From an uncultured Acidimicrobiia bacterium (GTDB lineage: Bacteria > Actinomycetota > Acidimicrobiia > Spongiisociales > Spongiisociaceae), in contig OY282370.1 of NCBI GenBank assembly GCA_958295745.1, positions 1,770,548-1,834,547 of the forward strand: a stretch of DNA of 64,000 nt, in the 5' to 3' direction. This document shows, piece after piece, positions 32,442 through 52,587 of the stretch; position 1 is the first letter of the stretch; each line of letters starts with the position of its first letter. The notes under the pieces are model-generated. The model did no database searches, was not told the origin of the DNA, and saw nothing but the letters and a program-made list of their open reading frames with translations. The position numbers and the translations under genes are program-made.

Positions 32442-33137
32442 CTAACTATTGCAAGGAACTTTGAGGGCCTCCCCTGTATATTGCCATTGGCTTGAACTGG
32501 CTACCTGAGAATAAAGTGTTGCTTTTGCATCAAGCTTACACTTATTACACTTAGTCCAGTGCGTTTCATCTCTTTCTCTCAAGGTTCTTATACTTTCCCA
32601 AGGCGCAAGTTTATGGCCGTGTTTCTCGGCCAGATATGTTGCCAGTTCTCGCCCTTCAGGCGGCAATGGTTTGGGTAGCTTGGGGGCAGGTTTCTTAGCA
32701 GTATCAGGACGCGGGATTCGTATTGCCCTTACCCTTTTACCTTTATGTGGTTCTGTGCTCGGAGTATCGGAAGACGGTATCTCTGGTTCCGCTTGCAGTT
32801 CTGGCTTCTCTTCAGTCGGAGTTGGTTGAGGAGTTGCCGGCTGATATTCCGGGCTGATAGGAGCAGTTGTTTCTGTAGTTGTCGGTGGGTCGGGTATTTG
32901 TTCTGTAGTGCCAGAAGGACGCGGAGCAGTAGCCTCCGTCCTTCGTTCTGTTGCTCTTTTACGGACTCTTGAGATAAAGCCGCCTCTTCGACGGCGTTGG
33001 GGTTTGGGCTTATCCTCTACTGTAGATTTTGCAATAGTACGTCTGTGTCTTCTTTTTCCGCGTTTCGTCGCCACCTCCTTGGGTGTAGGGATATAATAGT
33101 CATCGTCGGCCTGATGTCTGTCATCCGTCATGCCCAT
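32442..33137 (-). CDS. hypothetical basic/Pro-Thr-rich protein with C-terminal Cys cluster; translationally coupled to upstream Hsp70-like gene
   Basis: 231 aa. MGMTDDRHQADDDYYIPTPKEVATKRGKRRHRR..; PT-rich middle; C-terminus ..HWTKCNKCKLDAKATLYSQVASSSQWQYTGEALKVPCNS. Its ATG overlaps the Hsp70-like stop (atgggcATGAcgg). Low-GC coding DNA argues for a genuine gene. Confidence 0.45.
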   Translation of the reverse strand: MGMTDDRHQADDDYYIPTPKEVATKRGKRRHRRTIAKSTVEDKPKPQRRRRGGFISRVRKRATERRTEATAPRPSGTTEQIPDPPTTTETTAPISPEYQPATPQPTPTEEKPELQAEPEIPSSDTPSTEPHKGKRVRAIRIPRPDTAKKPAPKLPKPLPPEGRELATYLAEKHGHKLAPWESIRTLRERDETHWTKCNKCKLDAKATLYSQVASSSQWQYTGEALKVPCNS

Positions 33138-34477: not shown

Positions 34478-37400
34478 GGGCCTTTCACCAATCCTGCCGA
34501 CAGCACTTTTACCGAAAGGCCGAACGGCTTGGCTTCAATGTCCTTCTTGGTAGCTTCGTGGTCAGATTCAAGGTCGTCCAATCGCTCTTTGCGTCTCTTC
34601 AGTAGACCTCGCCGGGCTGGAAGAACGCGCCGCTCTTCATCTGTTCCATACTGCTCCAAGGAGCTTATCAGTTCTTGCTCGGCGTTTATCTCTCGTTCCA
34701 ATCTGGCCCTCTTGTATTCGAAGATGCGGGTCTCCCTGTCGAGATCACTTTGCTTCCACAAGCTGTTGCGATGGCCAGCCTCTTGTCTGTATTTCGTGTA
34801 AGTATCTGGGACGGCTTTTAGGCTGACCTCCACGGCCCGCGACAACCAAGCCGGTGGTTTTTCCAATTTGAGATCTGTCCCGATCCGAGGCATGGACTTG
34901 ACTCGCTGCTCTTCGAGCATACCATCTTCTCCTACGAGGTGGCGTATGATAACACCGAACGGTGGATTTCCTTGTGTAGCCAGCTCATAGTATATCTCCA
35001 AGTATACATCTCTGCCGAAATCGTCTACGACCCGAAAAGAGGTCCATGTTGGAGGATTAGCCTCTATCGTTATATTCATGATAGAATCGATCAAAGGATT
35101 GCCCAAGGCTAGAAAGGGTAGGTTTTCGTTCTCTAAAGCAGTCTGTGGATCAAAGATACCCCTATATGTTTTTTTACCGCCCTTCAACCTTTTTATCAAT
35201 TTATCAGGGAGCTGAATTATTTCCCCTGCTTCTTTATGATTACTGAGCCATCCTCCAAAAAACTTTAGAGATATATCTATGTGAGCTTTGAGGTCATCCG
35301 GGGTAGCCATCCGGTCATCTTCAATTATCTTGTTTGCTATATCATGCCGGAAGCTGGCTCGGTCCATAACAAAGTTTTGCCAGGTGCGTTCGGTGATTCG
35401 AGCCTGGGAGATTTTCTTTTCTATGTCCTCTATGTATTCCTCGAAGGCCTCGTCGTCTCGGGTCAATATCAAGCGTTCGATATCCTTTTCAACCTCCCCC
35501 AGAATCGGTTCAAGCGAACCGACCGATTGTTCGAACAGTCCGATTCGTTTATCTAGCACATCCAGTATGCGTTCCTCTATTGTTCCTTGGCATGCCAGAT
35601 TGTAGATGTGAACATCTGACTTTTGTCCTATACGATCAAGTCGTCCGATGCGCTGTTCGATCTTCATGGGGTTCCATGGTAAATCGTAGTTGAACATGGT
35701 ACTCGAGAATTGAAAGTTGCGTCCCTCACCTCCTGCCTCGGTTGTTATGAGGATCTGACTGCGAGTGCGAAATGTTTGAACGGCGTTTTCTTTGGCGTCC
35801 AGGTTCATATTGCCGTTGAACATTACGACGTCATATCCGTTCAATTCTAGTGTTTGACGCAAGAACTCTTGAGTATCTATATATTGAGTAAAGATTAGAA
35901 TCTTTTGTTCGGATACATCTCGCATAGCGCGTAAGAGTACCTGTGCCTTGGAATCCCTGAGGTTCTCAAGCCTATCGACTAAGCCTTTGAGTTCCTGGAT
36001 CTCGTTCTGAGTATCTTCGAGTTCGATGATCCTTCTGAAGCCATCGCTCCAAGTATACAGGTCGATTAGACTCATAGGGTCTTCTGCCTCGCGAGCGTCT
36101 TCCAAAACATCGGGGTCATATATTTTGTCCTTGGATGTCCCATCCTCAATCGTCTGATCATCTATCCTTGCTTCGAGCCTTTCGATTCGCCGATTGAAAC
36201 CCTCGTACAGAGCATATGAACTCGATGCCAAAAGCTTTTGATATGTAACCATGGCAAATCCTACTGCTCGTTGTTTGTTTTGAAGGGCGCGATTATATCC
36301 GCGAACTATATAATCGGTAATGTCTTCGTACAATTGAGATTCTTCTTCGGTTAGATTGACTGGATATATCTTTGCTACACGGTTGGTAAAACCTCCTACT
36401 GTTGCCTTGCGGTTTCTGATCAGAATATCTGCGAAAGGATGCTCTCTGATTATTTGGCCTTCGGCTTCTGAACGTCCTATGTATTCATCTAGGTCGTAAC
36501 TCGGAAGTAGCTTTCTTAGATCCTTTTGCTCTCGGGAATCTAATTCGTCCCATCTCAAAATTTCCTGCATTATACTGTTCAGTACCGGGATATGGTCGAT
36601 CTGGTCTTCGTAATCTTCGAATGAATAAAGGCCGGGTTCGACCAGCTCGATCAACGAATACAATTCGTAGGGATGGAGCTGCATAGGTGTAGCGGTGAGA
36701 AGCAATAGACCGTATTGTTCCTTCAGCTGGTCAGCCAGTCTATAGGCGCGTGTGGTGTCCGTTTTTTTGCCAATCTTATGCCGCCGCAGTCGGTGGGCTT
36801 CGTCGAAGACCACCAAATCCCATCCGGCCTCCGTTATGGATTCGGTGTGCTTTTCCTTGCGTGCGAATTCCAACGAGCAGATCACGTTGTCTCGTTTCTT
36901 CCACGGATTGCCGCCGTCCCTCGACAAGAACTTGACCCCCGCACCGTCGATGACCTCGAAGTCTTCGTTGAATTTGGAACTCAGCTCCTGCCGCCATTGC
37001 TGGGTAAGAGAAGCGGGCGTGATTACGAGCACCCGCTTGATCAGGCCGCGCGCCCGCAGTTCCTTGATGACCAGTCCGGCCTCGATCGTCTTGCCCAGCC
37101 CTACTTCGTCGGCCAGGATCATGCGCGGGCGAGGATTCTTCGACACCACCCGGTTGGCTGCATAGATCTGATGAAGAGCGGGTTCGATCCGGGCGTTGGA
37201 CAGCCCGGCGCAGGGATCGTAACGGTAGGCATGTTGCAGGTAGAGCGCCTGAAGGCGAAGGCCGTACGGCTCGGCGCGCCCGATCACACCCCTTAGGAGA
37301 TCGTCTCGGGGGTCCTCGAAGATCAATTCCAGCTCAGATACGTCAATATATTGAATACTGTTAGGGAATGAAACTTTAGCTAAATCACCTTCAATATTCC

Positions 37401-37488
37401 TTATAATTCCTCTTTCGTCGTTCGCGGTCCATCTAACTCGGTCTCCCGGTTTGAGCGAGCGTTCGCCTCTGGAAGGGTGAGATGACAT
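34474..37488 (-). CDS. SNF2/RAD54-family helicase-like ATPase with small N-terminal beta-rich domain and ~400-aa C-terminal extension of unknown function
   Basis: ORF 34474..37989 (-). Likely start MSSHPSRGERSLKPGDRVRWTANDERGII.. (ATG rc ~37486-37488). Motifs ..ILADEVGLGKTIEAGLVIKEL.. (I), ..WDLVVFDEAHRLR.. (II), ..LLLTATPMQLHPYELYSLIEL.. (III), ..ILIFTQY..VVMFNGNMN.., ..ILITTEAGGEGRNFQ.., ..DLPWNPMKIEQRIGRLDRIGQ.. (VI). GC ~40-45%. Confidence 0.8.
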   Translation of the reverse strand: MSSHPSRGERSLKPGDRVRWTANDERGIIRNIEGDLAKVSFPNSIQYIDVSELELIFEDPRDDLLRGVIGRAEPYGLRLQALYLQHAYRYDPCAGLSNARIEPALHQIYAANRVVSKNPRPRMILADEVGLGKTIEAGLVIKELRARGLIKRVLVITPASLTQQWRQELSSKFNEDFEVIDGAGVKFLSRDGGNPWKKRDNVICSLEFARKEKHTESITEAGWDLVVFDEAHRLRRHKIGKKTDTTRAYRLADQLKEQYGLLLLTATPMQLHPYELYSLIELVEPGLYSFEDYEDQIDHIPVLNSIMQEILRWDELDSREQKDLRKLLPSYDLDEYIGRSEAEGQIIREHPFADILIRNRKATVGGFTNRVAKIYPVNLTEEESQLYEDITDYIVRGYNRALQNKQRAVGFAMVTYQKLLASSSYALYEGFNRRIERLEARIDDQTIEDGTSKDKIYDPDVLEDAREAEDPMSLIDLYTWSDGFRRIIELEDTQNEIQELKGLVDRLENLRDSKAQVLLRAMRDVSEQKILIFTQYIDTQEFLRQTLELNGYDVVMFNGNMNLDAKENAVQTFRTRSQILITTEAGGEGRNFQFSSTMFNYDLPWNPMKIEQRIGRLDRIGQKSDVHIYNLACQGTIEERILDVLDKRIGLFEQSVGSLEPILGEVEKDIERLILTRDDEAFEEYIEDIEKKISQARITERTWQNFVMDRASFRHDIANKIIEDDRMATPDDLKAHIDISLKFFGGWLSNHKEAGEIIQLPDKLIKRLKGGKKTYRGIFDPQTALENENLPFLALGNPLIDSIMNITIEANPPTWTSFRVVDDFGRDVYLEIYYELATQGNPPFGVIIRHLVGEDGMLEEQRVKSMPRIGTDLKLEKPPAWLSRAVEVSLKAVPDTYTKYRQEAGHRNSLWKQSDLDRETRIFEYKRARLEREINAEQELISSLEQYGTDEERRVLPARRGLLKRRKERLDDLESDHEATKKDIEAKPFGLSVKVLSAGLVKGP

Positions 37489-37579
37489 TTGGCTAGCCAA
37501 GAGTAGTGTTGCTCTGAGTGCCGCGGAGAAGCCGGTGCCGGGTCGCGTCAAGGTAATGGGGCGGTCTACCATGGGGGGC

Positions 37580-38731
37580 ATGCTTCGTTTCTTGACTGCA
37601 GGGGAATCGCACGGCCCCGGGCTGGTGACCATCGTCGAGGGGGTTCCGGCGGGGTTGGTCGTTACCCGTGAGGGCTTGGGTACCGAGCTGGCCCGCAGGC
37701 GTCTGGGGTACGGGCGCGGCAACCGTATGAAGCTCGAGCAGGACGAGCTGGAGATCATGGGCGGTATCCGCCACGGGCGCACCCTCGGCTCGCCGGTGGC
37801 GGTGATCATCCGCAACACCGAGTGGCCTCGCTGGCAGGAGGAGATGTCGCCGGACCCCGGCGTCCCGAGGCGGCCCATGACCACCCCCCGCCCCGGCCAC
37901 GCCGACCTGGTGGGGATGCTCAAGTACGACACCAAGGACGCCCGCAACATTCTCGAGCGGGCTTCGGCCCGCGAGACGGCGGCCCGCACCGTCGTCGGTT
38001 ACCTGGCCAAACAACTGCTGGGGAGCATCGACGTCACGGTGCTCAGCCATGTGGTGGCGATCGGCAAGGCCGTGTCGCTCTCCGAACGGCTCCCCGTCAT
38101 CGAGGACCTTCCCGCCATCGATGCTTCCCAAGTCCGGGCCTTCGGTGCCGAAACCGAGCAGGCGATGGTCGCCGAGATCGAGCGGGCCAAGGCCGACCGG
38201 GACACGCTGGGCGGGGTGATGGAGGTGCTGGTCTACGGCCTGCCGCCCGGCGTCGGATCCCACGTGCATTGGGATCGGAAGCTCGACGCCAGGCTGGGGG
38301 AGGCGTTGCTCTCGATCCAGGCCATGAAGGCGGTCGAGGTGGGCGACGGGCTGGAGACGGCCCGCCGCCGGGGTTCCGAGGCGCACGACGAGATCTACTA
38401 CGGGGACGATGGTTTCTACCGCAATACGGGCCGGGCGGGCGGCACGGAGGGCGGGATGACTACCGGACAACCCCTCCGGGTTCGGGTGGCCATGAAACCG
38501 CTCTCGACGGTGATGCGGCCCCTCCCCACCGTGGACGTGGTGACCAAGGAACCGCAGGTGGCCTTCCGGGAACGCTCCGACGTGTGCGCGGTGCCGGCCG
38601 CCGGGGTGGTGGCCGAGCAGATGACGGCGTACGTGGTTGCCCGGGAGCTCCAGCGCAAGTTCGGCGGGGACACCGTCGGCGACTTCGCGGGGAACGCCGC
38701 CGCCTATAGGGCCCGGCTCCGCTCGTTTTGA
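37580..38731 (+). CDS. aroC: chorismate synthase
   Basis: MLRFLTAGESHGPGLVTIVEGVPAGL..GRSSARETAARVVVGYLAKQLLG.. Start at ATG 37580; the ORF-track start 37535 is an upstream GTG extension. Confidence 0.9.
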   Translation: MLRFLTAGESHGPGLVTIVEGVPAGLVVTREGLGTELARRRLGYGRGNRMKLEQDELEIMGGIRHGRTLGSPVAVIIRNTEWPRWQEEMSPDPGVPRRPMTTPRPGHADLVGMLKYDTKDARNILERASARETAARTVVGYLAKQLLGSIDVTVLSHVVAIGKAVSLSERLPVIEDLPAIDASQVRAFGAETEQAMVAEIERAKADRDTLGGVMEVLVYGLPPGVGSHVHWDRKLDARLGEALLSIQAMKAVEVGDGLETARRRGSEAHDEIYYGDDGFYRNTGRAGGTEGGMTTGQPLRVRVAMKPLSTVMRPLPTVDVVTKEPQVAFRERSDVCAVPAAGVVAEQMTAYVVARELQRKFGGDTVGDFAGNAAAYRARLRSF

Positions 38732-38776: not shown

Positions 38777-40315
38777 ATGGGGAACCTCTGGCTCGTCGGC
38801 ATGATGTGTTCCGGCAAGACCACGGTGGGCGGGCGCGCATCCGAGGCCCGCGCCACACCTTTCTTCGATGTGGACCGGCTGGTGGAGCTGCGGGCCGGGA
38901 AGTCCGTCGTGGACATATTCCGTCAGGACGGGGAGTCCGCCTTCCGGCGCTTGGAGGCGGCCGAGATCCGGCGCTTAGCGGACGATTCGCCGGGCGGCGG
39001 TGGCAGCAGCGGCGGCGGGGGCATGGTCGTCTCCACCGGCGGGGGGGCGGTGCTCGACGACCGGAACGTGGAGGCGATGCGCCGCACCGGGGCGGTGGTG
39101 TGGCTGGATGCCCCCGTTTCCGCTTTGGCGGCCCGGGTGGCGGGGGAGGAGCGGCCTTTGCTGGCCGGGGTGGACGCCCCCCGTTTTCTGGCGGAGATGC
39201 TCGACCGGCGGCGCCCTATGTATGAAGGGGCCGCCCACTACCGGGTCGACGCCGACCGTCCGGTTTCCGAAGTGGCCGCCGAGGTTTCCTGTTGCGCCCG
39301 GATCGCAGTCGGAGGCGCTTCGGAGATACTGATCGGGCCGGGCCTGACATCCCCTCTGCTTCCTCGGTCGTCCGGTCGCGAGCAGGCGGCGGTCATCACC
39401 CAGCCCGGCGCCATGCCGGCGGCCCGCCGGGTGATGGACCGGCTGCGGGCAGAGACAGACGCCGTGTTGATCGAAGTTCCCGACCGGGAGGAGGCCAAGA
39501 CCGTTGGGACCTTGGGGATGCTCTACACCCGGTTGGCGGAGCTGAACCTCGGACGCCACGACACGATCGTCGGGGTGGGCGGCGGGGCGGTAACCGATCT
39601 GGCCGGGTTCGCCGCGGCGACCTGGCTGAGAGGGATCGAGTCCGTGCTGGTTCCCACCACCCTGCTGGGGGCGGTGGATGCGTCCATCGGTGGCAAGACC
39701 GGAATCAACGTGTCGGGCAAGAATCTGGTGGGGGCCTTCTGGCATCCGTCCCGGGTGTCGGTCGGCCTCGACACGCTGGCCGCTCTGCCCGAGGATCTGA
39801 TCAGGGAGGGGGCGGCGGAGACGGTAAAGGCCGGTTTCATCGCCGACCCCGGGCTGGTGGAGCTGTTCACGGCCGACGGGATGTCTTTCCCGCTCGCCGA
39901 GGCGGTGAGGCGGGCGGTTGCCGTCAAGGCGGAGGTGGTCTCTTCGGACTTTCGCGAGGCCGGGCGCCGGGCGGTGCTCAACTTCGGCCATACGATCGGG
40001 CACGGCGTGGAGGCGGCGTGCGGGCTGGCGCACGGACACGCCGTTTCGGTGGGCATGGCGGCGGCGGCGGCCGTATCCGCGGACCGGTACGGGTTCGATC
40101 CGGGCGAGGTGCTGCTTCCGCTCGAACGGCTGGGCCTGCCCACCCGGATAGAGCAGGCCGACCGGGCCGAGATCCGCCGTCTGATCTCCCGTGACAAGAA
40201 GCGCACCGCGGCGGGATTGCGGATGGTTCTGTTGCGCGGGGTGGGGGATCCGGTGGTGGAGCAAGTGGACGAGGACGCCTTGGAGATCGGGTTTTCGGCG
40301 GTGGGTGTGTGTTGA
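38777..40315 (+). CDS. aroKB: bifunctional shikimate kinase / 3-dehydroquinate synthase (AroK-AroB fusion)
   Basis: Residues 1-~175: MGNLWLVGMMCSGKTTVGGRASEARATPFFDVDRLVE.. (shikimate kinase, Walker A) containing a GGGGSSGGGG insert. Residues ~180-512: ..AVITQPGAM..TIVGVGGGAVTDLAGFAAATWLRGIESVLVPTTLLGAVDASIGGKTGIN..NFGHTIGHGVE.. (DHQ synthase). Single uninterrupted ORF. Confidence 0.8.
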   Translation: MGNLWLVGMMCSGKTTVGGRASEARATPFFDVDRLVELRAGKSVVDIFRQDGESAFRRLEAAEIRRLADDSPGGGGSSGGGGMVVSTGGGAVLDDRNVEAMRRTGAVVWLDAPVSALAARVAGEERPLLAGVDAPRFLAEMLDRRRPMYEGAAHYRVDADRPVSEVAAEVSCCARIAVGGASEILIGPGLTSPLLPRSSGREQAAVITQPGAMPAARRVMDRLRAETDAVLIEVPDREEAKTVGTLGMLYTRLAELNLGRHDTIVGVGGGAVTDLAGFAAATWLRGIESVLVPTTLLGAVDASIGGKTGINVSGKNLVGAFWHPSRVSVGLDTLAALPEDLIREGAAETVKAGFIADPGLVELFTADGMSFPLAEAVRRAVAVKAEVVSSDFREAGRRAVLNFGHTIGHGVEAACGLAHGHAVSVGMAAAAAVSADRYGFDPGEVLLPLERLGLPTRIEQADRAEIRRLISRDKKRTAAGLRMVLLRGVGDPVVEQVDEDALEIGFSAVGVC

Positions 40316-40400: not shown

Positions 40401-42833
40401 TTATCTGTACGGTAAGGCGGGGAGGCTGGCGGCTTCGGTTATTTCTTCGGGGTGGACCAGGGCGGTCATTTCGGCGCCGGTCGTGGTTACGATTTTCACG
40501 GCCACCGGTTGCCCCGTAGGCGGGAAGGGCTGGGAGCGCATGCTGACGATCTTGTCGATCGCGTCTTTGTCGGCCTTCTTGCCCAGTTCTTTCATGAGGC
40601 GCTTGAGGTTCCGTTCCTTGCGGGCGGCGGGCAGGTAGGTGAGGGTCGAGAAGAACGACGCTCCGTCGTGGTCGGTGTCGATCATCCAGGCGGCGATCTG
40701 GTTCGGTCCTCCGGCAACGACGCCGCCGGTCGCCGGGTCGTAGGTGTCGTAGCCGATCACCTCCACCGACACCCGCCCGTCCGGTTCGGGATGGAGGATG
40801 AGGTCGGGCTCGCCCAGCATGGTGAAGGATTCATCGCCGGGAGCGTCGGCGAGCTGGGTGATCTGCAGGTCCCGGTTGGCCTGGACTTTGAGCACCTCTA
40901 CGTCGCGGTAGGCGGTTTCGATGCCGGGGGTGAACGCCCATCCCACCACGATCAGATGCTTCACGTCGGGCAGGTGTTTCTTGGCTTCGTTGGCGGCGAG
41001 GGCGGCCTGCTGGCCGGTCACCGTGGCGTCGGGGGAGGCCAGCATCACCGCTGCCAAGAACTCGTCCTCTCGGTTGGGGGACTGGCAGAGAGCCCCGTGG
41101 GTGGTGAGCTTCCCGGTGGGCCATGGTTCCAGATCGACGACCTCCAACGCCTGCCGCCCGAACGCCGTTTTCACCGTTGCGCCCATCAGCCGTTCCACCA
41201 GGTTGGCCTGTGTTTGGGCGGCGGCCGTTCCCAGATCGTCGGGCCCGGCTTCGGGTTCGTGGAACGGGACGTAGGCGTAGGGCGATTCGGCCTCTACCGT
41301 AAAGGGTGAGCACACCCGCAACACCGAGCGGTCGTGCTTCGGTTTGTCCACCAGGTAGATGGTGTTCTCCGGGTCGTCCACCTTGTCGTAGGCGAGGGTG
41401 GCGGCGGAGACGCGTTGGATGGTTTTATACACGAACCCCACCGAAGGGTCGGCGGATCCCGGTATGTCGGAGTCGACCTCCCACCAGGGGTGGACTCCGG
41501 TGAGGACGCGCTGGCGGGCTATGGAGATTGAAACGGGGGAGGTATCGCAGGTGATCCACCGTCGTCCCCAACGCTCGGCGGCATCCGCCGTTACTCCCGA
41601 TCCGCAGGTAGGGTCGAACACCAGGTCGCCCGGGTCGGAAGCCATCAGGATGCACCGCTCCACTACCGAGGCGGCAGTTTCGACTACATAACGTTTTGCG
41701 CCGGGCTGTGGACGTTTGACTGTATGCCACACGTTGTCGATGCGATGGCCTGGTACCTCGTCTTCATACCACTTCCAATGGAGGCGTCGGCCTTCAACAT
41801 CGAGTCGTCCTAGTTGGGCGAGTCGGTCCATGCCGCTAAGGCCCTGCTCCCCCGTAGGAGAGGACTCTCCACTGGCGCGTGGCCCCATACCACCCCTTCC
41901 ATTGGGGAGTGTTCGCTCCTCAGGAGTGGACACTCTCCACTGGCGCGTGGCCCCTGAGTGGTATCTGACCCCATCATACTCATACCAACCCGTTCGCCCG
42001 GTATTTGATGCCCCTTGGGAGGTGAGGTTCATTCGTCTATAAATACGTGCCCCTGCAGGTAGATTCTCGTCGGGTTCTTTCCTTTCATATCGAGTTAGTT
42101 TACGGGTAGTACCATCTGGGAGCTCCACCATGACATAAGAGGCGAAGTGTTTGACGACTTCTGCTCGTGAAAGGGGTACATAAAGTTGTCTATACTTGAC
42201 CTTTTGGCTGTCCTTGGTATACCAAAGCAGATAGCTGGCTGATTCGGGTAGGTATCTTGAAGATGAACCTCCTGTGGGCCGCCAGGTTATGGTGGCCATC
42301 TTGTTTTCGTGGCCGAACACCTCGTCGCAAACCACTGCCAGTCGATGAACATGATCGTCTCCGATCTGGAGGAACAGCGACCCGCTTTCTGCTAATAGTT
42401 CGCGTATGAGCACCAGCTTTACATATATGGCGTCCAGATATGAGTGGATGCCGTTGCGGTAGCTGTCTCGGAAGGCGGTGACAGAGGCAGGATCGCCGAC
42501 CGGCACGCCGTCCCCTTTGTTGCTGACGTTGAGGTTGTTGGTAGAAGGTTGGAAGTTACTTCTATATCCTATTCCGTAGGGAGGGTCGAAGTAGACCACC
42601 TGTACTTGACCTGCGAGGTCTTCACGGGCCAGCAACGAGGACATTACGCGAGCCGATTCACCATGTATGAGGCGGTTCTGCCAATGACCCCGGTGCCGGT
42701 AGTACTCGAAGGCGGAATGGTCGGCGGGCAGGCCGTTGAAATCATCGAACAGGTTGGGGGTTACCCCTGCTTCGGGTCGGGTCAGCTGGTTGACGAAGGC
42801 GGTGGGCAGGACCTTCTCACGGATCGACAGCAC
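40401..42833 (-). CDS. mod: Type III restriction-modification system methyltransferase (Mod), beta-class N6-adenine/N4-cytosine MTase
   Basis: 810 aa. Motif IV ..VQVVYFDPPYGIGY.. near the N-terminus; motif I ..VFDPTCGSGVTADAAERWGRRWITCD.. about 300 aa later (beta-class order). GTG start; no in-frame start further upstream before a TGA. Confidence 0.75.
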   Translation of the reverse strand: MLSIREKVLPTAFVNQLTRPEAGVTPNLFDDFNGLPADHSAFEYYRHRGHWQNRLIHGESARVMSSLLAREDLAGQVQVVYFDPPYGIGYRSNFQPSTNNLNVSNKGDGVPVGDPASVTAFRDSYRNGIHSYLDAIYVKLVLIRELLAESGSLFLQIGDDHVHRLAVVCDEVFGHENKMATITWRPTGGSSSRYLPESASYLLWYTKDSQKVKYRQLYVPLSRAEVVKHFASYVMVELPDGTTRKLTRYERKEPDENLPAGARIYRRMNLTSQGASNTGRTGWYEYDGVRYHSGATRQWRVSTPEERTLPNGRGGMGPRASGESSPTGEQGLSGMDRLAQLGRLDVEGRRLHWKWYEDEVPGHRIDNVWHTVKRPQPGAKRYVVETAASVVERCILMASDPGDLVFDPTCGSGVTADAAERWGRRWITCDTSPVSISIARQRVLTGVHPWWEVDSDIPGSADPSVGFVYKTIQRVSAATLAYDKVDDPENTIYLVDKPKHDRSVLRVCSPFTVEAESPYAYVPFHEPEAGPDDLGTAAAQTQANLVERLMGATVKTAFGRQALEVVDLEPWPTGKLTTHGALCQSPNREDEFLAAVMLASPDATVTGQQAALAANEAKKHLPDVKHLIVVGWAFTPGIETAYRDVEVLKVQANRDLQITQLADAPGDESFTMLGEPDLILHPEPDGRVSVEVIGYDTYDPATGGVVAGGPNQIAAWMIDTDHDGASFFSTLTYLPAARKERNLKRLMKELGKKADKDAIDKIVSMRSQPFPPTGQPVAVKIVTTTGAEMTALVHPEEITEAASLPALPYR

Positions 42834-42909
42834 CGGAGCGTCGAAGGTATTCTGGTCGTCGGCAGGGTCGCGGTTCCAGAAGAGAGTTGGATCAGTATTC
42901 GCATTCTCC

Positions 42910-42920
42910 GGGGGGGGGGG
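42910..42920. repeat. G11 homopolymeric tract in the res-mod intergenic region, ~78 bp upstream of the mod start
   Basis: Read directly: ctccGGGGGGGGGGGtggtaac (11 G on the + strand; poly-C in the mod transcript direction). Confidence 0.9.
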
Positions 42921-43060
42921 TGGTAACTGATAGGGGCGGCTTCGTCACCCGAGGCGCTTGCTTCTTCGGTGGGAAGGTTCACGCGGGACGCTTCCTGATG
43001 CCGGTAGGAACGCAGGGGTTTCGTTCGCTGTTTCCTTCTCCGTGCCACGGTGTCCTCCGT

Positions 43061-46012
43061 TCAATCAGTATCGCGGATGGCTTTATCGAGGTCGGTTCTG
43101 ACCCGTTGGGTTTCGTTCAGCTCCACCAATCCCCATCGGCGCAGTTCCGGGTCGATCGCCTCTGTTTTGGCCACCGAGGGAATCCAGTGCTCGATTACGA
43201 AACGTTTCTTGTGTTCCCACTTGGGGTCAGGGCGGCCCTTGCCTTCGATGATCAGGTTGAGTCCGTTGTCGAGCCTGGCTGCGAAGTCGGGAGTGTAGAG
43301 GTGCCAAACTCCGTCCGAGCGGTAGGGGATCGTCCAGCCCAGCTGAAAGTTGCGCGCCCAAGCCGTTACCCGCGGGTGCCGGTCGAGCTGCCGGGCGCAT
43401 TCCAGTTCGAGTCCGCTGTGGCAGGCGGCCAGGTTTAGTTCAGAGTGTGCAGTTTCATGTATGTAACTCAGCGTGGTCTCGAAGCGCACCTCGTCGGTGT
43501 CGCTCAGGGGAGGGAGTGCGAGCTTGGCCACCTGGATAGCGCCGCCTTTTGGAGTGGGGCGGCAGGCGGTCAGTATGCGGTCTACTACCTCCTCACGGTG
43601 GTCGGCTCGCAACAGCAGCATGGGGTCGTCTTCGGCTATGGAGATATGTGGATGGGATATCCATTGCTCAACGGCTCGGTAGGCGCCGCGGAAGAGTCCG
43701 CTCCGTCTATGGCCTGCCGCATCACCGTTGCTGAACACAAACCGGCGCACCACCATTGCCGCCAGGGTTGCCTTGGCGGTCTTCAGACGGGTGTCTTGGC
43801 GGCTGATCTCGATGATTTTCTCCTCGCCTGCCACCCCTGTGATCAACGTCATGGTGGGTATGTCACCTACGTCCACGGAGTAGGGCTCCACCAGGTCGGG
43901 GTGGAAGGTCAGGCCGTCCTGGGGCGGGATGGTCATGTACTGCTCCACCAACGGGAAGGTGATCCGGCGGTCTTGGCGGCCCGGTACGGTCTTCACGATG
44001 TGGATGGGTTTCGGCTCGGGCGGCTCGGGATCGATGGGGCCGGAAGGCATGAACTCGAAAGGTATCCCCACCACGTCGGCGTACTCGGGGTTGAGCAACC
44101 GGCGTATCCGTCCGCCGTCGTCGATCTCCCGCCAGTTCTCGTAGTCGACCCGGCGGAGCGCCCGACCCGTCACCTGTTCGCACAGCAGCTGGGTTCCGAA
44201 GCGGCGGTAGCCGAGTACGTGGGTGACGGTGCGGGTGTCCCAGCCCTCGGTGAGCATCGACACCGACACCACGCAGCGCACCCGCTCGCCCGGCCGGTCC
44301 GGTTTGCCGACCGTGTTCATCATCCGCCGCATCGCCATGACCGGATCGGCGGCTCGGTCGTCGAACCGGCCTACCTGGTCTTTCACCAGCTTGGCGAATT
44401 TGCCGGTGAGTTTCTCGTCGGTGTCGAGCTTGGAATGGACCAGCAGGGTGCGGGGATAATCTTTCCAGCCGCTCCCGTCGTCCCGGACGTTGGAGAAGAG
44501 CGGGAGTTCTCCCGGCCTGAAGGAACCGTCGCGCCCTTCGGCGCCGGCGATCCAGTCGTAGAGGGCGGCGGCGTTGGCGATGGTGTTGGCCACCACGATC
44601 ATCACCGGCGGGGTCTTGGTCTCCGCTTTCTCCCAAGTTCGGAAGGAGCGTTCGTAGTCGGCGTACAGGGCCGACATGGCGCCATCCAACGGTTCCTGCA
44701 GCGGTTCGCCGTTCGCTTTGATGCGCTTGTGATGCGAGTTGCCGTACAGGTTGCGCCATACGGTCTGGTCGGCGGAGGCGTCGTCGTCGCAGGGCACCCG
44801 CGGCACCTTGACCAGCCCCGACTCGATCGATTCCATCAGCCCGAAGTCGGACACCACCCATTCGAAGAGCCGGGGTCGCGCCTTGGAAGTGGTGTCGATC
44901 CACATGGGGGTGGCGGAGAAGTCGTATACGACGCTCGCTTGGCCGCGGCGGTCGTCCATCCGTCCGAGGTGTCCGGCGTCCCGCAGGGCGCGAATGGCGT
45001 TGAACCAGACGGCCGCCGCCTTGGAGTCGACGTCCTTTCCGCCCTTGTGACCCTTCTGGCCTGGAAGCCAGCAGTGATGGGCCTCGTCGTTGATCACCAC
45101 CAGGTCGCCGTAGGCGGAGGAAGGGCGGATCAGATCCCTGAGCACTCGTTCGGCGGCGGCTTGGCGCGACTCGCGGCCGGTGTCGTAGTCGACCTCCAGC
45201 AGCTTGCGGGCGTGTCCTGTGGCGCCGAGCAGGTCGCGGGGCTGGAAGGCCTGCCAGTTGACGACGGCCACCTTCGCCCGGTTGAGACTGCGGCGCAGCG
45301 GCCCCGGCGGGACCAGCCCGTATTCGTCGTAGATGTTGTCGGGGTGGGTGGGGCGCAGCACCGCCAGGCGGTCGCGGACGGTGAGGCCGGGGGCGATCAC
45401 GGCGAAGCGCTGGCCGTGATGCAGGTTCCGGCTTCGGGAAGTGCGGACGGCGTTGAGGGTCTGCCAGGCGATCAGCATCGCCATGACCACCGTCTTGCCG
45501 GTGCCGGTGGCCTGCTTGACGCAATGGCGGACGATCCCGTCGTTGTACCTGCGGGACAGTTCCTCGATGCTTCGGCGTTCCGGCGTCCCTCGGGTGGCGA
45601 CCTCCCGCAACCAGATCAGGGTTTCGATGGCTTCCTGCTGGGCGAAGAACGGCTGCTTCCGGCATTGCTCGCCGTCAGCCCAGTGGCGCAGGAGCTGCCC
45701 GGTGACGCGGGTGGCGCCCGGATAACCGTTGTTTCGCCAAGTCTTCACCTTGCCCCGGATGGCGTTGATGGTCTCGTTCAGGTCCTGGGTGGTCAGCTCG
45801 AGAGCGATCTGCGGATCGGAGTCCTTGGCGTCTTTGGGCGTGGACCGGACCGCCATGGATGGACGGCGGCCCGGCACGGGAAGGCGGCCCTTCATCGCCC
45901 GGCCCAGCCGATCCAGCCCCCAGTACCGGTCCGGTTCTTCGTAGGGGGAGCACAGCACCGGGTCTTGCGACGGGTCGTTGCCGACCCGGGTTGCCCTGCC
46001 GTTTTCGCTCAT
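43061..46012 (-). CDS. res: Type III restriction enzyme Res subunit (SF2 helicase-nuclease)
   Basis: 983 aa. ..VKQATGTGKTVVMAMLIAWQTLN.. (motif I), ..DLVVINDEAHHCW.. (DEAH), ..VLGYRRFGTQLLCEQVTGRALRR.. (motif VI), plus a C-terminal endonuclease region. Confidence 0.8.
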   Translation of the reverse strand: MSENGRATRVGNDPSQDPVLCSPYEEPDRYWGLDRLGRAMKGRLPVPGRRPSMAVRSTPKDAKDSDPQIALELTTQDLNETINAIRGKVKTWRNNGYPGATRVTGQLLRHWADGEQCRKQPFFAQQEAIETLIWLREVATRGTPERRSIEELSRRYNDGIVRHCVKQATGTGKTVVMAMLIAWQTLNAVRTSRSRNLHHGQRFAVIAPGLTVRDRLAVLRPTHPDNIYDEYGLVPPGPLRRSLNRAKVAVVNWQAFQPRDLLGATGHARKLLEVDYDTGRESRQAAAERVLRDLIRPSSAYGDLVVINDEAHHCWLPGQKGHKGGKDVDSKAAAVWFNAIRALRDAGHLGRMDDRRGQASVVYDFSATPMWIDTTSKARPRLFEWVVSDFGLMESIESGLVKVPRVPCDDDASADQTVWRNLYGNSHHKRIKANGEPLQEPLDGAMSALYADYERSFRTWEKAETKTPPVMIVVANTIANAAALYDWIAGAEGRDGSFRPGELPLFSNVRDDGSGWKDYPRTLLVHSKLDTDEKLTGKFAKLVKDQVGRFDDRAADPVMAMRRMMNTVGKPDRPGERVRCVVSVSMLTEGWDTRTVTHVLGYRRFGTQLLCEQVTGRALRRVDYENWREIDDGGRIRRLLNPEYADVVGIPFEFMPSGPIDPEPPEPKPIHIVKTVPGRQDRRITFPLVEQYMTIPPQDGLTFHPDLVEPYSVDVGDIPTMTLITGVAGEEKIIEISRQDTRLKTAKATLAAMVVRRFVFSNGDAAGHRRSGLFRGAYRAVEQWISHPHISIAEDDPMLLLRADHREEVVDRILTACRPTPKGGAIQVAKLALPPLSDTDEVRFETTLSYIHETAHSELNLAACHSGLELECARQLDRHPRVTAWARNFQLGWTIPYRSDGVWHLYTPDFAARLDNGLNLIIEGKGRPDPKWEHKKRFVIEHWIPSVAKTEAIDPELRRWGLVELNETQRVRTDLDKAIRDTD

Positions 46013-46102: not shown

Positions 46103-46660
46103 ATGGTCTCCACCAACGATGTCAAGTCGGGTATGGCGCTCGATCTCTCCGACGGGCTGTTCCAGATCGTCGAGCACCAGCATGTGAAGCCGGGCAAGGG
46201 CCGGGCGTTCGTCCGCATGAAGCTCAAGAACCTGCGCTCGGGGGCGGTGGTCGACCGCACCTTCCGCGCCGACGAAGATGTGCCGCAGGCCATGATCGAC
46301 CGGCGGGACCACCAATACCTGTACCGGGACGACCTCGGCTACCACTTCATGAACCTGGAGACCTATGCCCAGTTCGCCTTGGCGGAGGAGGATGTCGGGG
46401 AGGCCAGAAACTACATCACAGAGGGCGCCACCGTGATGCTTCCCCTCTACCAGGACTTTCCGATCGGGGTGGAGCTGGCGGCCTCGGTCCGGCTCGAGGT
46501 GACCGGTGCCGAGCCTGCGGTCAAAGGCGACCGGGTGTCGGGCGCCACCAAGCCGGTCACGTTGGAAACCGGGCTGGTCGTTCAAGCGCCGCTCTTCGTT
46601 GAAGCCGGCGATGTCATCAAGGTAGATACCCGCTCCGGTGCCTACATCTCCCGGGTGTGA
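46103..46660 (+). CDS. efp: elongation factor P
   Basis: MVSTNDVKSGMALDLSDGLFQIVEHQHVKPGKGRAFVRMKLKNLRSGAVVDRTFRADEDV... full-length EF-P. Confidence 0.9.
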   Translation: MVSTNDVKSGMALDLSDGLFQIVEHQHVKPGKGRAFVRMKLKNLRSGAVVDRTFRADEDVPQAMIDRRDHQYLYRDDLGYHFMNLETYAQFALAEEDVGEARNYITEGATVMLPLYQDFPIGVELAASVRLEVTGAEPAVKGDRVSGATKPVTLETGLVVQAPLFVEAGDVIKVDTRSGAYISRV

Positions 46661-46680
46661 GCGCCGGCCCCCCTTTTCCG

Positions 46681-47070
46681 ATGAAAGAACACGTGTCGCG
46701 GGACCGGGTGCTCGAAGCTCTCTACCAGGCCGATCTGCGCGAGTCCGCCGATCCGGCCGAGGGCTTGCAAGGCCGCAACCGGAGCTATGTGGAGGGGGCC
46801 TGGAGGGACGTCGAAGATCTGGACAGCCGGATCGAGGCGGTATCCGAACACTGGTCGGTGTCGAGGATGGCCGTCGTGGATCGGGCCATCCTGCGCCTGG
46901 CGTTGTACGAGCTCCTCAACGAGCGGACCCCGGCGGCGGTGGTGCTCGACGAGGCGGTCGAGCTGGCCAAGCGGTATTCGACCGAGAAGAGCGGCGCTTT
47001 CGTCAACGGGGTGTTGGCCGCCCTAGCCGCAGAGGTGAGGAGCGGCGAGATCCGTCCCGGACAAGGCTAG
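46681..47070 (+). CDS. nusB: transcription antitermination factor NusB
   Basis: MKEHVSRDRVLEALYQADLRESADP...VVDRAILRLALYELLNERTPAAVVLDEAVELAKRYSTEKSGAFVNGVLAAL.. The ORF-track start 46657 is probably an N-terminal extension. Confidence 0.8.
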   Translation: MKEHVSRDRVLEALYQADLRESADPAEGLQGRNRSYVEGAWRDVEDLDSRIEAVSEHWSVSRMAVVDRAILRLALYELLNERTPAAVVLDEAVELAKRYSTEKSGAFVNGVLAALAAEVRSGEIRPGQG

Positions 47071-47957: not shown

Positions 47958-49580
47958 CTACCCCTCTAGCTGTTTCAGGTATTCGGTGCCCTTGGCTGTT
48001 GAGCGGTAGCGTTGGAGGCGGCTTCGGGGTTTGTCTGGGATGGTCATTTCGATCAGGCCTGATCGTAGGGCGGGTACTAGATAGGCTTCGCGGAAGTGCT
48101 TGATGTCTTTCAAGCCGAGCAGCCTTCTTAGTTGTTGACTGGTCATTTCCCCTGAAATCACATTGAGTAGCTTGACTTCCCCGGTGACTTCCCCGGGTGA
48201 ACTCAGGGGGTTCCTGGTTTCTTCAGATGACTTCCCCGGTCGGTTGACTTTGGGGGTTGACTTGGGGGGTTGACTTTGGGGGTTGACTTGGGGGGTTGAC
48301 TTGGGGGGTTGACTTGGGGGGTTGACTTCCCCGGTGACTTCCCCGGTGGTCTTGGTCGCCGTATGTGAGCGCACTTCGGGGTTGGGTCGAAAGACGACGG
48401 TAAAGAAGCTGTTGGCCTCGAACTCCGGCAACGGGCAGTCCTGTTCCCGGGCGTCGTTCTGGATACGCCGGATTCCGGTGCCCGCCTTCTCGATGAAGTC
48501 GATGCGGTGGAGCAGATCGGCGAGTAGCGGATTGCGCCTGATGCTCTTGTGGCCGAGCTCGGCCATGGTGATACCTTTGGGCAGGCTACCGGGGCTGACC
48601 ACTTCGATCCGGTCGGGGTAGAGCTCGACGAAGACGTTGGCGCCTTCTATGAACCAGTCCCGGTGCATGACCGCGTTGGTGATGGCCTCCCGCAACGCCT
48701 TCATCGGGTACTCGGGGATGTTCTGCCTCCTCAGGCCCTCGATCCGGTAGGCGAGGCGGGTGTTGCGCTCGATGAACCGCATCGACTCCTCGATGTCGGC
48801 CGCGATCCCGCCGTTGAAGTCCTTGCGATCCAGGATGTGAACCTTGTTGGGGTCGCGCGCCAGCAGGCAGGTGATGTACGCCTGCGAGAAGAACCGCCGC
48901 ACCTCCTTGGCGAAAAACAACACGCCCGCGTTGCGGAACAGCAATCGGTCGCCGTCCTGCTCGGCGGCTTCGATGTTCGTCAGTACATCCTCGACGGGCG
49001 GCCGGCCGGTGATGCCGGACATCTCCAGCCAGGTTCTGTACTTGTCGAAGTCGAAGTCATCGGGGTACTTGAAGCGCGGACAGGGGGTGAGGTCGAACCG
49101 GATCACTCCCTCGCTTCGGAAGAAGTTGCGTATTTCGTCTCTGCTGAGCTTTTGGGTCATGGCGCCCTGACGCCAGAAGAAACCATCGCTGCACTGCACC
49201 GGCTTGCCGTCGCTTTCCCGAACATGGACGACGATCACCTCATTCACCGGTTCCACCACGATTTTTACCGGAGGATCACAGTTGTGTGCGATGTTCTGGA
49301 TCCGAGCGCGCAGGGCGTTGGAGTCCTGAACCCCGGCCACCGCGCCGTTGTCGCTTACCCCCAAGAGGATCCTGCCGCCGATAGTGTTGGCCAAGGCCGC
49401 CATCTCTCTCGCCAACGAGGACGAGAGTCTCTCCTTGAACTCGAGGGTTGCGCCCTCACCCTGCTGGATGAGCATTGCGAGGTCGGCAGGAGTCATGTCG
49501 CTTCTCCCAACCTCGGGCGGCGTGAGTTCGTCAGGAGGCGGCGGGTTCGTACCATCCGGAGCCGAAGATGAGGCCGTCAT
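47958..49580 (-). CDS. AlbA_2 (Schlafen-like) / HATPase_c_4 ATP-binding putative DNA-binding protein with C-terminal wHTH
   Basis: 540 aa. ..ATLEFKERLSSSLAREMAALANTIGGRILLGVSDNGAVAGV.. (AlbA_2), ..GSLPKGITMAELGHKSIRRNPLLADLLHRIDFIEKAGTGIRRI.. (HATPase_c_4), linker with (GEVTGEV)-flanked PPSQPPKSTPQVNPQSQPPKSTPKVN repeats, C-terminal ..QQLRRLLGLKDIKHFREAYLVPALRSGLIEMT.. (wHTH). Confidence 0.6.
   Translation of the reverse strand: MTASSSAPDGTNPPPPDELTPPEVGRSDMTPADLAMLIQQGEGATLEFKERLSSSLAREMAALANTIGGRILLGVSDNGAVAGVQDSNALRARIQNIAHNCDPPVKIVVEPVNEVIVVHVRESDGKPVQCSDGFFWRQGAMTQKLSRDEIRNFFRSEGVIRFDLTPCPRFKYPDDFDFDKYRTWLEMSGITGRPPVEDVLTNIEAAEQDGDRLLFRNAGVLFFAKEVRRFFSQAYITCLLARDPNKVHILDRKDFNGGIAADIEESMRFIERNTRLAYRIEGLRRQNIPEYPMKALREAITNAVMHRDWFIEGANVFVELYPDRIEVVSPGSLPKGITMAELGHKSIRRNPLLADLLHRIDFIEKAGTGIRRIQNDAREQDCPLPEFEANSFFTVVFRPNPEVRSHTATKTTGEVTGEVNPPSQPPKSTPQVNPQSQPPKSTPKVNRPGKSSEETRNPLSSPGEVTGEVKLLNVISGEMTSQQLRRLLGLKDIKHFREAYLVPALRSGLIEMTIPDKPRSRLQRYRSTAKGTEYLKQLEG
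48243..48328. repeat. imperfect 14-bp tandem repeat (gttgacttgggggg x ~6) inside the Schlafen-like CDS; unit length not a multiple of three
   Basis: Read directly: gttgactttgggg|gttgacttgggggg|gttgactttggggg|gttgacttgggggg x3. Flanked on both sides by ggtgacttccccgg(tgacttcccc). Encodes the 14-aa-period QVNP(P/Q)SQPPKSTP segment. Confidence 0.85.
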
Positions 49581-52443: not shown

Positions 52444-52587
52444 CGGCAACACCTCTTGAATCAAATCCTGACTGGCCTTATTGAGCATACCAAAGACGGT
52501 TTGCATGCCAAAGACGGCTTGCAACGAGGGGGGCGGGTATGAAACCGCAGGAATATCTCTGATCGGATGCGCTCGGGACGGCGTGAT

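What the first reader, a model, noticed from the sequence alone, without database searches (positions are those of the whole stretch)
40401..46012. Type III R-M system inserted between aroB and efp, in unusual res-then-mod order, with a G11 tract 5' of mod
In actinobacteria aroC-aroK-aroB are normally followed by aroQ and then efp-nusB. Here a 5.6-kb res plus mod module occupies that position and no aroQ is present in the window. The gene order is res upstream of mod, whereas mod-res is canonical for Type III systems. An 11-G homopolymer at 42910-42920 lies between res and the mod GTG start. No in-frame alternative start exists upstream of the tract, so slipped-strand changes would act on transcription, spacing or read-through rather than on the reading frame. 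Homopolymer-driven phase variation of Type III mod genes is well established in other phyla.
Basis: partly seen in the sequence, partly recalled or inferred. Interest (0 to 1): 0.55.

Follow-up and report, generated by a model that had tools for sequence, protein, structure and literature searches.

The report
Poly-C switch inside a methylase gene
The run of eleven G's is not between two genes but inside the start of a DNA-methylase gene of a restriction system, where it knocks the gene out of frame; related strains carry 10, 11 or 12 copies, the familiar signature of a randomly switching ("phase-variable") defence gene, here in an uncultured, probably sponge-associated actinobacterium.

Summary
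The sequence facts are confirmed. res (46012-43061) and mod both lie on the minus strand between aroKB and efp, in res-then-mod order, and G11 sits at 42910-42920. It is not intergenic. A GTG at 43048, with a GGAGGA Shine-Dalgarno site 12 nt after the res stop, opens a 43-codon reading frame. That frame is conserved in homologues down to about 50% identity. It joins the mod body only if the tract is C12 or C9, giving 882 or 881 aa. The window's C11 is therefore out of frame.

Near-identical contigs carry C10 and C12. Relatives about 80% identical carry C10, C11, C17 or C9-TG-C18 at the same site, or a C11 about 55 nt downstream. In-frame and out-of-frame copies both occur, and dN/dS is below 0.5 on both sides of the tract.

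This is a classic slipped-strand contingency locus in a Type III-like system whose Res belongs to the BPTD_3080 family. Both gene orders are common in that family. The lack of aroQ is normal for the lineage. The R-M system is an old resident of a variable aroKB-efp site. It is a new member of a known kind. Read-level heterogeneity was not tested.

The parts
43061..46012 (-). res: 983-aa restriction subunit. It has an SF2 ATPase with motifs ATGTGKT, NDEAHH, SAT and QVTGRALRR, and a C-terminal PD...EGK nuclease motif.
   Evidence: ORF. Pfam ResIII 27.6 bits. NCBIfam NF046055 BPTD_3080 family, 781 bits over positions 2-969 of 970, cutoff 800. Motifs read in the translation. AF2 model pLDDT 81.8, with Foldseek hits to RadD, HsdR and Type ISP motors. 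Weak profile match of residues 884-933 to T7 endonuclease I.
43053..43058 (-). Shine-Dalgarno GGAGGA of mod, 4 nt upstream of GTG 43048, within the 12-nt res-mod spacer (43049-43060).
   Evidence: Read directly from the sequence. The same arrangement is seen in L085, L001, L002, L003 and L004.
42921..43048 (-). True 5' end of mod: GTG start plus codons 1-43 (MARRRKQRTKPLRSYRHQEASRVNLPTEEASASGDEAAPISYH).
   Evidence: With C11 this frame ends after 88 codons at 42782. The peptide is identical to the N-terminus of P0001 and conserved in 14 homologues down to 55% identity, with invariant Y15 R16 H17 A20 R22 N24 P26 T27 E29. dN/dS is 0.09-0.46.
42910..42920 (-). Hypermutable poly-C tract (G11 on the + strand), encoding the Pro run of a poorly conserved linker. 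C12 or C9 is in frame; the window's C11 is out of frame.
   Evidence: reconstruction; C10 in L085, C12 in L001.
40401..42909 (-). Body of mod: a beta-class N6/N4 methyltransferase with DPPY before FDPTCGSG, the target-recognition region between them, and a family-specific C-terminal extension of about 350 aa. It is open throughout.
   Evidence: Pfam N6_N4_Mtase 1e-27. PADLOC MTase_III 1e-126. EcoP15I Mod 4zcf_A 1e-15, tested with close homologue P0002. dN/dS 0.14-0.36.
38777..40315 (+). Flank: fused aroK-aroB (shikimate kinase / 3-dehydroquinate synthase), convergent with mod.
46103..47070 (+). Flank: efp (46103-46660) and nusB (46657-47070), divergent from res.

Best explanation
res and mod form one minus-strand operon of a Type III-like restriction-modification system.

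mod begins at GTG 43048, 12 nt after the res stop. It carries a poly-C tract at codons 43-47, in a poorly conserved proline linker between a conserved N-terminal segment and the methyltransferase body. Slipped-strand mispairing at this tract during replication changes its length.

Lengths of C12 or C9 give full-length Mod of 882 or 881 aa. C10 or C11 terminate translation after 51 or 88 codons. The window copy (C11) is in the OFF frame.

In Type III enzymes Res depends on Mod for target recognition, so mod-OFF should switch off both methylation and restriction without harming the cell. Populations would then hold mixed ON and OFF cells, a bet-hedging arrangement for defence, DNA uptake or methylation-dependent gene expression.

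Shown here: the position of the tract inside the gene, the frame consequences, length polymorphism between close strains, recurrence of tracts in orthologues, and purifying selection on both sides of the tract.

Inferred: switching within a clonal population, dependence of Res on Mod, and the biological pay-off.
For: - Frame reconstruction shows that only C9 or C12 gives an 881- or 882-aa ORF.
- Homologues are 860-890 aa and cover 97-99% of the reconstructed protein. P0001, 98% identical, has exactly the predicted N-terminus '...SYHPPPPENANTDPTLFWNRD'.
- Three contigs 97.5-98% identical carry C10 (L085), C11 (window) and C12 (L001). Between the window and L085 the tract is the only indel inside res and mod, apart from one at the divergent 3' tail.
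- In clusters about 80% identical, assemblies from other samples (scaffold and Logan contigs, apparently short-read) carry C10 out of frame (L003) and C11 in frame (L166, L167). Others carry C17 in frame (L169) and C9-TG-C18 out of frame (L002). A sub-lineage with no tract at this site has a C11 about 55 nt downstream, in frame in L168 and out of frame in L004.
- Many N-terminally truncated gene calls of 809, 800 and 846 aa sit beside 875-882-aa calls in the same 90% clusters.
- dN/dS is 0.14-0.46 for both mod segments and 0.28-0.39 for res, even between copies that are all out of frame.
- The CCC codon is only 35% of Pro codons, and only 2 of 22 Pro-Pro runs in trusted window genes are CCC CCC.
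- In the wider family, 7 of 11 G/C runs of 9 or more in 80 loci lie in res or mod, which make up 30% of the bases (p=0.02). Frame breaks coincide with the tract in L012, L062, L007, L024 and L028.
- A sister lineage has (AG)12-14 inside res.
- Precedent: 17.4% of REBASE Type III mod genes carry simple sequence repeats (PMC5909438).
Against: - No reads were available, so heterogeneity within one population is not shown.
- L001 and L085 are long-read metagenome contigs (hifiasm-style 'ptg' names), and the window may come from a similar assembly. Long homopolymers are a weak point of such data.
- L001, the only in-frame copy in the closest cluster, has further 1-nt indels in res, in the 3' part of mod and in aroKB. 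It is either error-prone or decaying.
- Of the three closest copies, two are out of frame at the tract and the third is broken elsewhere. No fully intact allele of this species was seen.
- Res has no detectable sequence match to EcoP15I Res, so its dependence on Mod is an extrapolation.
- A G11 is not improbable from composition alone.
Confidence: 0.72

Rival explanations
1. Homopolymer miscall. The real tract is in frame (C12) in all these strains, the gene is simply intact, and the C10/C11/C12 differences are consensus errors of long-read assembly.
For: L001 and L085 are long-read contigs. L001 shows other 1-nt indels, including some in the housekeeping gene aroKB. The tract is the only long homopolymer in the region, so it is the only place where such errors would appear.
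Against: The same in-frame versus out-of-frame polymorphism appears in scaffold and Logan assemblies from different samples: L003 has C10 while L166 and L167 have C11. Many independent truncated calls exist. Tracts of 17-18 C cannot be stable whatever the sequencing platform. A mixed population is also what would make a consensus length unstable.
Confidence: 0.12
2. Irreversible decay. mod is a pseudogene, killed by a frameshift at a mutational hot spot in a genome that is shedding this R-M system.
For: A sister lineage has deleted most of the system, leaving res residues 1-61 fused to mod residues 621-877. L001 has additional lesions. L062 looks fragmented.
Against: In the window and in L085, res (983 aa) and the 810-codon mod body are free of stops. 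dN/dS is well below 1 on both sides of the tract across lineages. In-frame alleles coexist with out-of-frame ones within 90% clusters. The tract has been kept long at dS 0.4-0.7, and a second tract arose independently nearby.
Confidence: 0.08
3. Mod starts at GTG 42833 (810 aa), and the tract lies in its untranslated leader, where its length tunes transcription, spacing or read-through from res.
For: GTG 42833 is the first start in the body frame, and no in-frame start lies upstream of the tract.
Against: No Shine-Dalgarno site precedes 42833. The conserved protein sequence continues upstream of it ('TDPxLxWxRD...APVL') and, in the other frame, back to GTG 43048. The PADLOC MTase_III profile has about 110 more N-terminal positions than the 810-aa ORF. 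No minus-strand promoter-like or terminator-like site lies in the spacer.
Confidence: 0.03
4. Recoding. RNA-polymerase slippage or ribosomal frameshifting on the C run restores the frame in a fraction of products, so out-of-frame alleles give low, graded Mod levels rather than OFF. This is not exclusive of the main explanation.
For: Most copies observed are out of frame yet remain under purifying selection. Transcriptional slippage on long homopolymers is established in other bacteria; this point rests on my own knowledge.
Against: There is no direct evidence. Slippage is best documented for A/T runs. In-frame alleles do exist, so recoding is not needed to explain the conservation.
Confidence: 0.1

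Closest known systems
Phase-variable Type III mod genes (phasevarion methyltransferases such as ModA of Haemophilus and Neisseria and ModH of Helicobacter pylori; survey in PMC5909438)
   Same: A simple sequence repeat lies inside the mod ORF, and its length sets the reading frame. ON and OFF alleles occur among strains. Mod is a beta-class N6-adenine methyltransferase related to EcoP15I Mod. The tract meets the survey's criterion of a mononucleotide run of 9 or more.
   Different: The host is an uncultured, high-GC actinobacterium, probably of the class Acidimicrobiia and probably sponge-associated, rather than a small-genome pathogen. res lies upstream of mod. Mod is about 240 aa longer than EcoP15I Mod, with a family-specific C-terminal region. 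No methylome or regulon data exist.
EcoP15I / EcoP1I (prototype Type III R-M; PDB 4ZCF)
   Same: It is a two-subunit system. Mod is homologous (1e-15). Res combines an SF2 ATPase with a C-terminal PD-(D/E)xK nuclease.
   Different: The gene order is reversed. Res shows no sequence-level match to EcoP15I Res. Biochemistry, including recognition site, two-site requirement and ATP use, is unknown.
NCBIfam NF046055 'BPTD_3080 family restriction endonuclease' with its partner methyltransferase (PADLOC MTase_III PDLC03632)
   Same: Res aligns end to end (positions 2-969 of 970), and Mod gives 1e-126. Res and Mod homologues are co-oriented neighbours in 78 of 84 loci across many phyla and in archaea.
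   Different: The Res score of 781 bits is just under the curated cutoff of 800. I found no paper on this family.

Membership tests
Type III restriction-modification system | Co-oriented, adjacent mod and res genes forming one unit | tested here: met
   The res stop at 43061 and the mod GTG at 43048 are 12 nt apart on the same strand. The pairing is kept in 78 of 84 homologous loci.
Type III restriction-modification system | Mod is a beta-class N6-adenine methyltransferase (motif IV DPPY before motif I FxGxG, target-recognition domain between) homologous to characterised Type III Mod | tested here: met
   'YFDPPYGI' lies about 320 aa before 'FDPTCGSG'. Pfam N6_N4_Mtase 1e-27. PADLOC MTase_III 1e-126. 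EcoP15I Mod 4zcf_A 1e-15 and 6k0w Mod 2e-11.
Type III restriction-modification system | Res has SF2 helicase-like ATPase motifs followed by a C-terminal PD-(D/E)xK endonuclease | tested here: met
   Motifs ATGTGKT, NDEAHH, SAT, QVTGRALRR and PDF...IIEGK are present in the translation. Pfam ResIII scores 27.6 bits against a cutoff of 22.5. Foldseek matches SF2 motors including HsdR and Type ISP enzymes. Residues 884-933 match T7 endonuclease I weakly, E=0.014.
Type III restriction-modification system | Res is homologous in sequence to a biochemically characterised Type III Res (EcoP15I) | tested here: not met
Type III restriction-modification system | Canonical gene order mod then res (typical of the prototypes, not strictly defining) | tested here: not met
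   The window has res then mod. In this family res is upstream in 43 loci and downstream in 35.
Type III restriction-modification system | Res needs Mod for recognition; hemimethylation of an asymmetric site; ATP-dependent cleavage needing two inverted sites | not testable with these tools
   These are biochemical properties.
NCBIfam NF046055 BPTD_3080 family restriction endonuclease | Whole-protein score at or above the curated cutoff of 800 bits | tested here: inconclusive
   The score is 781.3 bits, E=1e-234, aligned over residues 16-978 to positions 2-969 of 970. That is full length but 19 bits under the equivalog cutoff.
Phase-variable (contingency) mod gene | Simple sequence repeat of 9 or more mononucleotides inside the ORF (criterion of PMC5909438) | tested here: met
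   C11 lies at codons 43-47 of the ORF that starts at 43048.
Phase-variable (contingency) mod gene | Tract length differs between closely related strains and moves the gene in and out of frame | tested here: met
   C10, C11 and C12 occur at 97.5-98% nucleotide identity. C10 and C11 occur within one 90% cluster (L003 versus L166 and L167).
Phase-variable (contingency) mod gene | Reversible ON/OFF switching within a clonal population, with matching methylation change | not testable with these tools
   No reads, cultures or methylomes were available.

The most novel reading that the evidence does not exclude
Repeat-driven switching may be a lineage-spanning property of this BPTD_3080-type R-M family in sponge-associated microbes, not a one-off. 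Repeats appear to have arisen independently at least five times:
- poly-C at two sites in the 5' part of mod
- poly-G/C in mid-mod in Acidobacteria, Rhodothermales and Gammaproteobacteria MAGs
- poly-C in the res linker
- (AG)n in the res linker

This would mean stochastic toggling of restriction, methylation or both within symbiont populations of one host. That would extend the phasevarion and contingency-locus concept from pathogens to beneficial, uncultured symbionts.
Probability: 0.45. Interest if true: 0.6.

Novelty: new member of a known kind. Interest (0 to 1): 0.42.

Why it matters
Annotation pipelines will call this mod either as a pseudogene or as an 810-aa protein with a false start. 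Recognising the tract as an intragenic switch corrects the gene model, to 882 aa from GTG 43048.

It also adds an uncultured actinobacterium, probably of the class Acidimicrobiia and probably sponge-associated, to the organisms with candidate phase-variable Type III-like methyltransferases. If read-level heterogeneity is confirmed, this family, with repeats in mod in some lineages and in res in others, offers a way to ask whether symbiont populations inside one host hedge between phage defence and DNA uptake, or run methylation-dependent regulons. So far that question has been studied almost only in pathogens.

The aroKB-efp interval is also shown to be a variable insertion site in this lineage.

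Tried and rejected
- Chance test of G11 by dinucleotide shuffles: not significant, mean 1.07 per window. The case rests on comparative data instead.
- Promoter and terminator scan of the res-mod spacer: nothing on the minus strand.
- PDB sequence and profile searches for Res: no EcoP15I Res hit.
- Literature search for BPTD_3080: no paper. Search for phase variation in sponge symbionts: only one general review.
It was therefore used for family-wide gene order and tract statistics only.
- Look-up of P0122, which may come from the window's own genome: not on record.
- The AroKB homologue search gave almost no taxon names. The assignment to Acidimicrobiia therefore rests on a few labelled homologues.
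- Alternative starts were considered and rejected as real initiation sites: GTG near 42952 for C10, which is the 851-aa gene call in L085, and GTG 42833 for C11. Neither has a Shine-Dalgarno site, and both would drop conserved residues.
Full report
**1. Observation**

Both large ORFs of the finding are on the minus strand: 43061-46012 (983 aa, ATG) and 40401-42833 (810 aa from the first GTG after a stop).

The upstream protein matches Pfam ResIII. It also matches NCBIfam NF046055, 'BPTD_3080 family restriction endonuclease', over its full length: 781 bits against a cutoff of 800, positions 2-969 of 970.

The downstream protein matches N6_N4_Mtase and a PADLOC Type III methyltransferase model at 1e-126.

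The flanks are aroC (37535-38731), a fused aroK-aroB (38777-40315), efp (46103-46660) and nusB (46657-47070).

G11 at 42910-42920 is real and is the only homopolymer of 8 or more bases in the window. Dinucleotide shuffles give 1.07 such runs per window, so it is not improbable by composition alone.

**2. The tract is inside mod**

On the coding strand, the res stop (43063-43061) is followed by GGAGGA (43058-43053) and then GTG at 43048. This ORF runs across the C11 tract and stops after 88 codons at 42782.

The mod body frame is open from a TGA eight codons upstream of the tract. It encodes '...PPPPPENANTDPTLFWNRDPADDQNTFDAPVLSIREKV', so conserved-looking protein continues upstream of the nominal GTG 42833.

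Replacing C11 by C12 or C9 fuses the two frames into an ORF of 882 or 881 aa. C10, C11 and C13 do not.

A search with the reconstructed protein found thousands of homologues. The best are 860-890 aa and cover 97-99% of it. P0001, 98% identical, begins 'MARRRKQRTKPLRSYRHQEASRVNLPTEEASASGDEAAPISYHPPPPENANTDPTLFWNRD', which is exactly the C12 reconstruction.

In an alignment of 14 homologues down to 55% identity, the N-terminal segment contains invariant residues: Y15, R16, H17, A20, R22, N24, P26, T27, E29, T50, D51, P52, L54, W56 and R58.

The window's mod is frameshifted at codons 43-47.

**3. Tract-length variation**

Two contigs from one metagenome (ERZ19489113) are 97.5-98% identical to the window over 8-14 kb and have the same gene context.
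- L085 (2.2 Mb) has C10.
- L001 has C12.

Between the window and L085 the tract is the only indel inside res and mod, apart from one at the divergent 3' tail. L001 has additional 1-nt indels in res, in the 3' part of mod and in aroKB, so it is either error-prone or decaying.

Relatives about 80% identical have the same efp|res-mod|aroKB-aroC context. They carry the following at the same site:

| Locus | Tract | Frame |
|---|---|---|
| L003 | C10 | out of frame |
| L166, L167 (other samples, same 90% cluster as L003) | C11 | in frame, 875 aa |
| L169 | C17 | in frame, 882 aa |
| L002 | C9-TG-C18 | out of frame |

A sub-lineage without a tract at this site has a C11 about 55 nt further on. It is out of frame in L004 and in frame in L168.

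Cluster membership lists show many more truncated calls beside full-length ones: 809 aa six times, 800 aa three times and 846 aa twice.

**4. Selection**

Nei-Gojobori dN/dS was computed between the window and L085, L001, L002, L003 and L004:
- res: 0.28-0.39
- mod body: 0.14-0.36
- the 42 codons before the tract, where substitutions exist: 0.09-0.46

Most of the copies compared are out of frame, yet both parts evolve as coding sequence. That fits reversible switching better than decay.

The tract sits in the least conserved stretch of Mod. Residues 41-80 are 45-60% identical, against 70-100% in the flanking blocks. This is a linker that tolerates a variable number of prolines.

CCC makes up only 35% of Pro codons in trusted window genes, and only 2 of 22 Pro-Pro runs are CCC CCC. 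The homopolymer is therefore not a by-product of codon usage.

**5. The wider family**

A scan of one genome per species with the Mod alignment gave 80 loci (L005-L084). They come from many phyla and archaea, and many are MAGs whose names suggest sponge association.

A Res homologue lies on the same strand in 78 of the 84 loci held at that point (L001-L084). It is upstream of mod in 43 (32 adjacent) and downstream in 35 (19 adjacent). The res-then-mod order is therefore ordinary for this family.

G/C runs of 9 or more are enriched in res and mod: 7 of 11, against 30% of the bases (binomial p=0.02). The reading frame breaks at the tract in L012, L062 and L007 (res) and in L024 and L028 (mod). 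It is intact in L006 and L021.

In a lineage whose Res is about 60% identical, nine protein clusters all end near residue 818. DNA from four contigs (L170-L173) shows an (AG)12-14 repeat at that point. The conserved PD...ECK nuclease part follows in another frame.

**6. Is it Type III?**

Mod clearly is. DPPY precedes FDPTCGSG with about 320 aa between them. The best solved relatives are EcoP15I Mod (1e-15) and another Type III Mod.

Res has the SF2 motifs and a C-terminal PD...EGK. Its AlphaFold model (pLDDT 81.8) matches SF2 motors, including HsdR and Type ISP enzymes. Its C-terminus matches T7 endonuclease I weakly.

Neither the single sequence nor the profile finds EcoP15I Res. I therefore call the system Type III-like: the architecture is met, but Res homology to the prototypes is not demonstrated.

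**7. Genomic context**

- No aroQ or aroD is detectable in the window.
- The nearest R-M-free relatives found (L086-L088: AroKB 52-57% identical, EF-P 64-76%) have aroC-aroKB-efp with gaps of 51-95 bp and no aroQ. More distant actinobacterial loci do have aroQ there. The lack of aroQ is therefore a lineage trait and not a result of the insertion.
- A sister lineage (L174-L176: AroKB 74%, EF-P 89%) has 6.4 kb of other cargo in the interval, including an IS. Next to efp it also holds a remnant in which res residues 1-61 are fused to mod residues 621-877.
- The R-M system is thus an old resident of a variable site: conserved in one clade and deleted in another.

**8. Mechanism and verdict**

The best-supported reading is a classic contingency locus. 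Slipped-strand mispairing at an intragenic poly-C tract toggles Mod between full-length and truncated forms. If Res depends on Mod, as in characterised Type III enzymes, the whole system is toggled.

Simple sequence repeats occur in 17.4% of REBASE Type III mod genes, including some from environmental bacteria (PMC5909438). This is therefore a new member of a known kind.

The main uncertainty is that no reads were available. Homopolymer miscalls in long-read assemblies cannot be excluded for the window itself. Even so, the apparently short-read assemblies and the recurrent, independently arisen tracts argue that the hypermutable sequence is real and maintained.

Noticed in passing
L170:6544-6571; L171:6443-6466; L173:3747-3770: In a lineage whose Res is about 60% identical, res carries an (AG)12-14 dinucleotide repeat in the linker before the nuclease domain. 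The conserved PD...ECK part follows in another frame in every copy read. Nine protein clusters (P0160-P0168) all end there.
   Followed up: partly
L006:9271-9282, L012:9445-9456, L062:9362-9371, L007:8610-8617 (res); L021:11680-11695, L024:11804-11814, L028:7157-7166 (mod): Poly-G/C tracts of 8-16 bases lie inside res or mod of the same family in MAGs of several phyla (Acidimicrobiia, Acidobacteria, Rhodothermales, Gammaproteobacteria). The frame breaks at the tract in five of the seven.
   Followed up: partly
L174:15884-16850 (also L175, L176): A sister lineage keeps only a remnant of the R-M system next to efp, with res residues 1-61 fused to mod residues 621-877. The aroKB-efp interval there also holds an IS (DDE_Tnp_1) and unknown ORFs of 494 and 550 aa.
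   Followed up: partly
window 32442-37989 (-): A low-GC patch (0.43-0.52, against about 0.67 nearby) upstream of aroC holds an SNF2 helicase resembling BrxHI, DrmD or HmaA. It also holds an Hsp70-like gene that appears split into 449-aa and 231-aa ORFs; the equivalent gene in L002 is a single 679-aa product. This may be a second foreign defence module.
   Followed up: no
window 49531-52524 (-): A 997-aa protein with SLH and Cache domains is built of tandem units of about 393 nt and shows very strong GC skew. Its copy number differs from the L001 homologue, which is 860 aa.
   Followed up: no
window 47958-49580 (-); 48335-48347: A gene with AlbA_2, HATPase_c_4 and Fic-like_C domains, a type common in defence islands, lies next to the locus. 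Relative to L085 the window has a 12-bp in-frame duplication (CACCGGGGAAGT).
   Followed up: no
L016:7853-7875 and 7919-7930: C23 and C12 tracts lie about 2 kb upstream of the mod homologue in an Acidimicrobiales MAG, outside res and mod. The gene that contains them was not identified.
   Followed up: no
L018, L019, L035, L038, L046, L048 and others: In many loci with mod-then-res order, 1-6 kb of other genes separate mod from res. This may indicate three-component variants of the system.
   Followed up: no
L001 (window equivalents 44876, 40838, 40724, 40246, 39953): The only contig of the closest cluster with an in-frame tract has extra 1-nt indels in res, in the 3' part of mod and in aroKB. 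This is either assembly error or a decaying haplotype.
   Followed up: partly
window 40401-41450 (Mod residues about 530-882): Mod has a conserved C-terminal region of about 350 aa with no Pfam or PDB match. It makes the protein about 240 aa longer than EcoP15I Mod.
   Followed up: no
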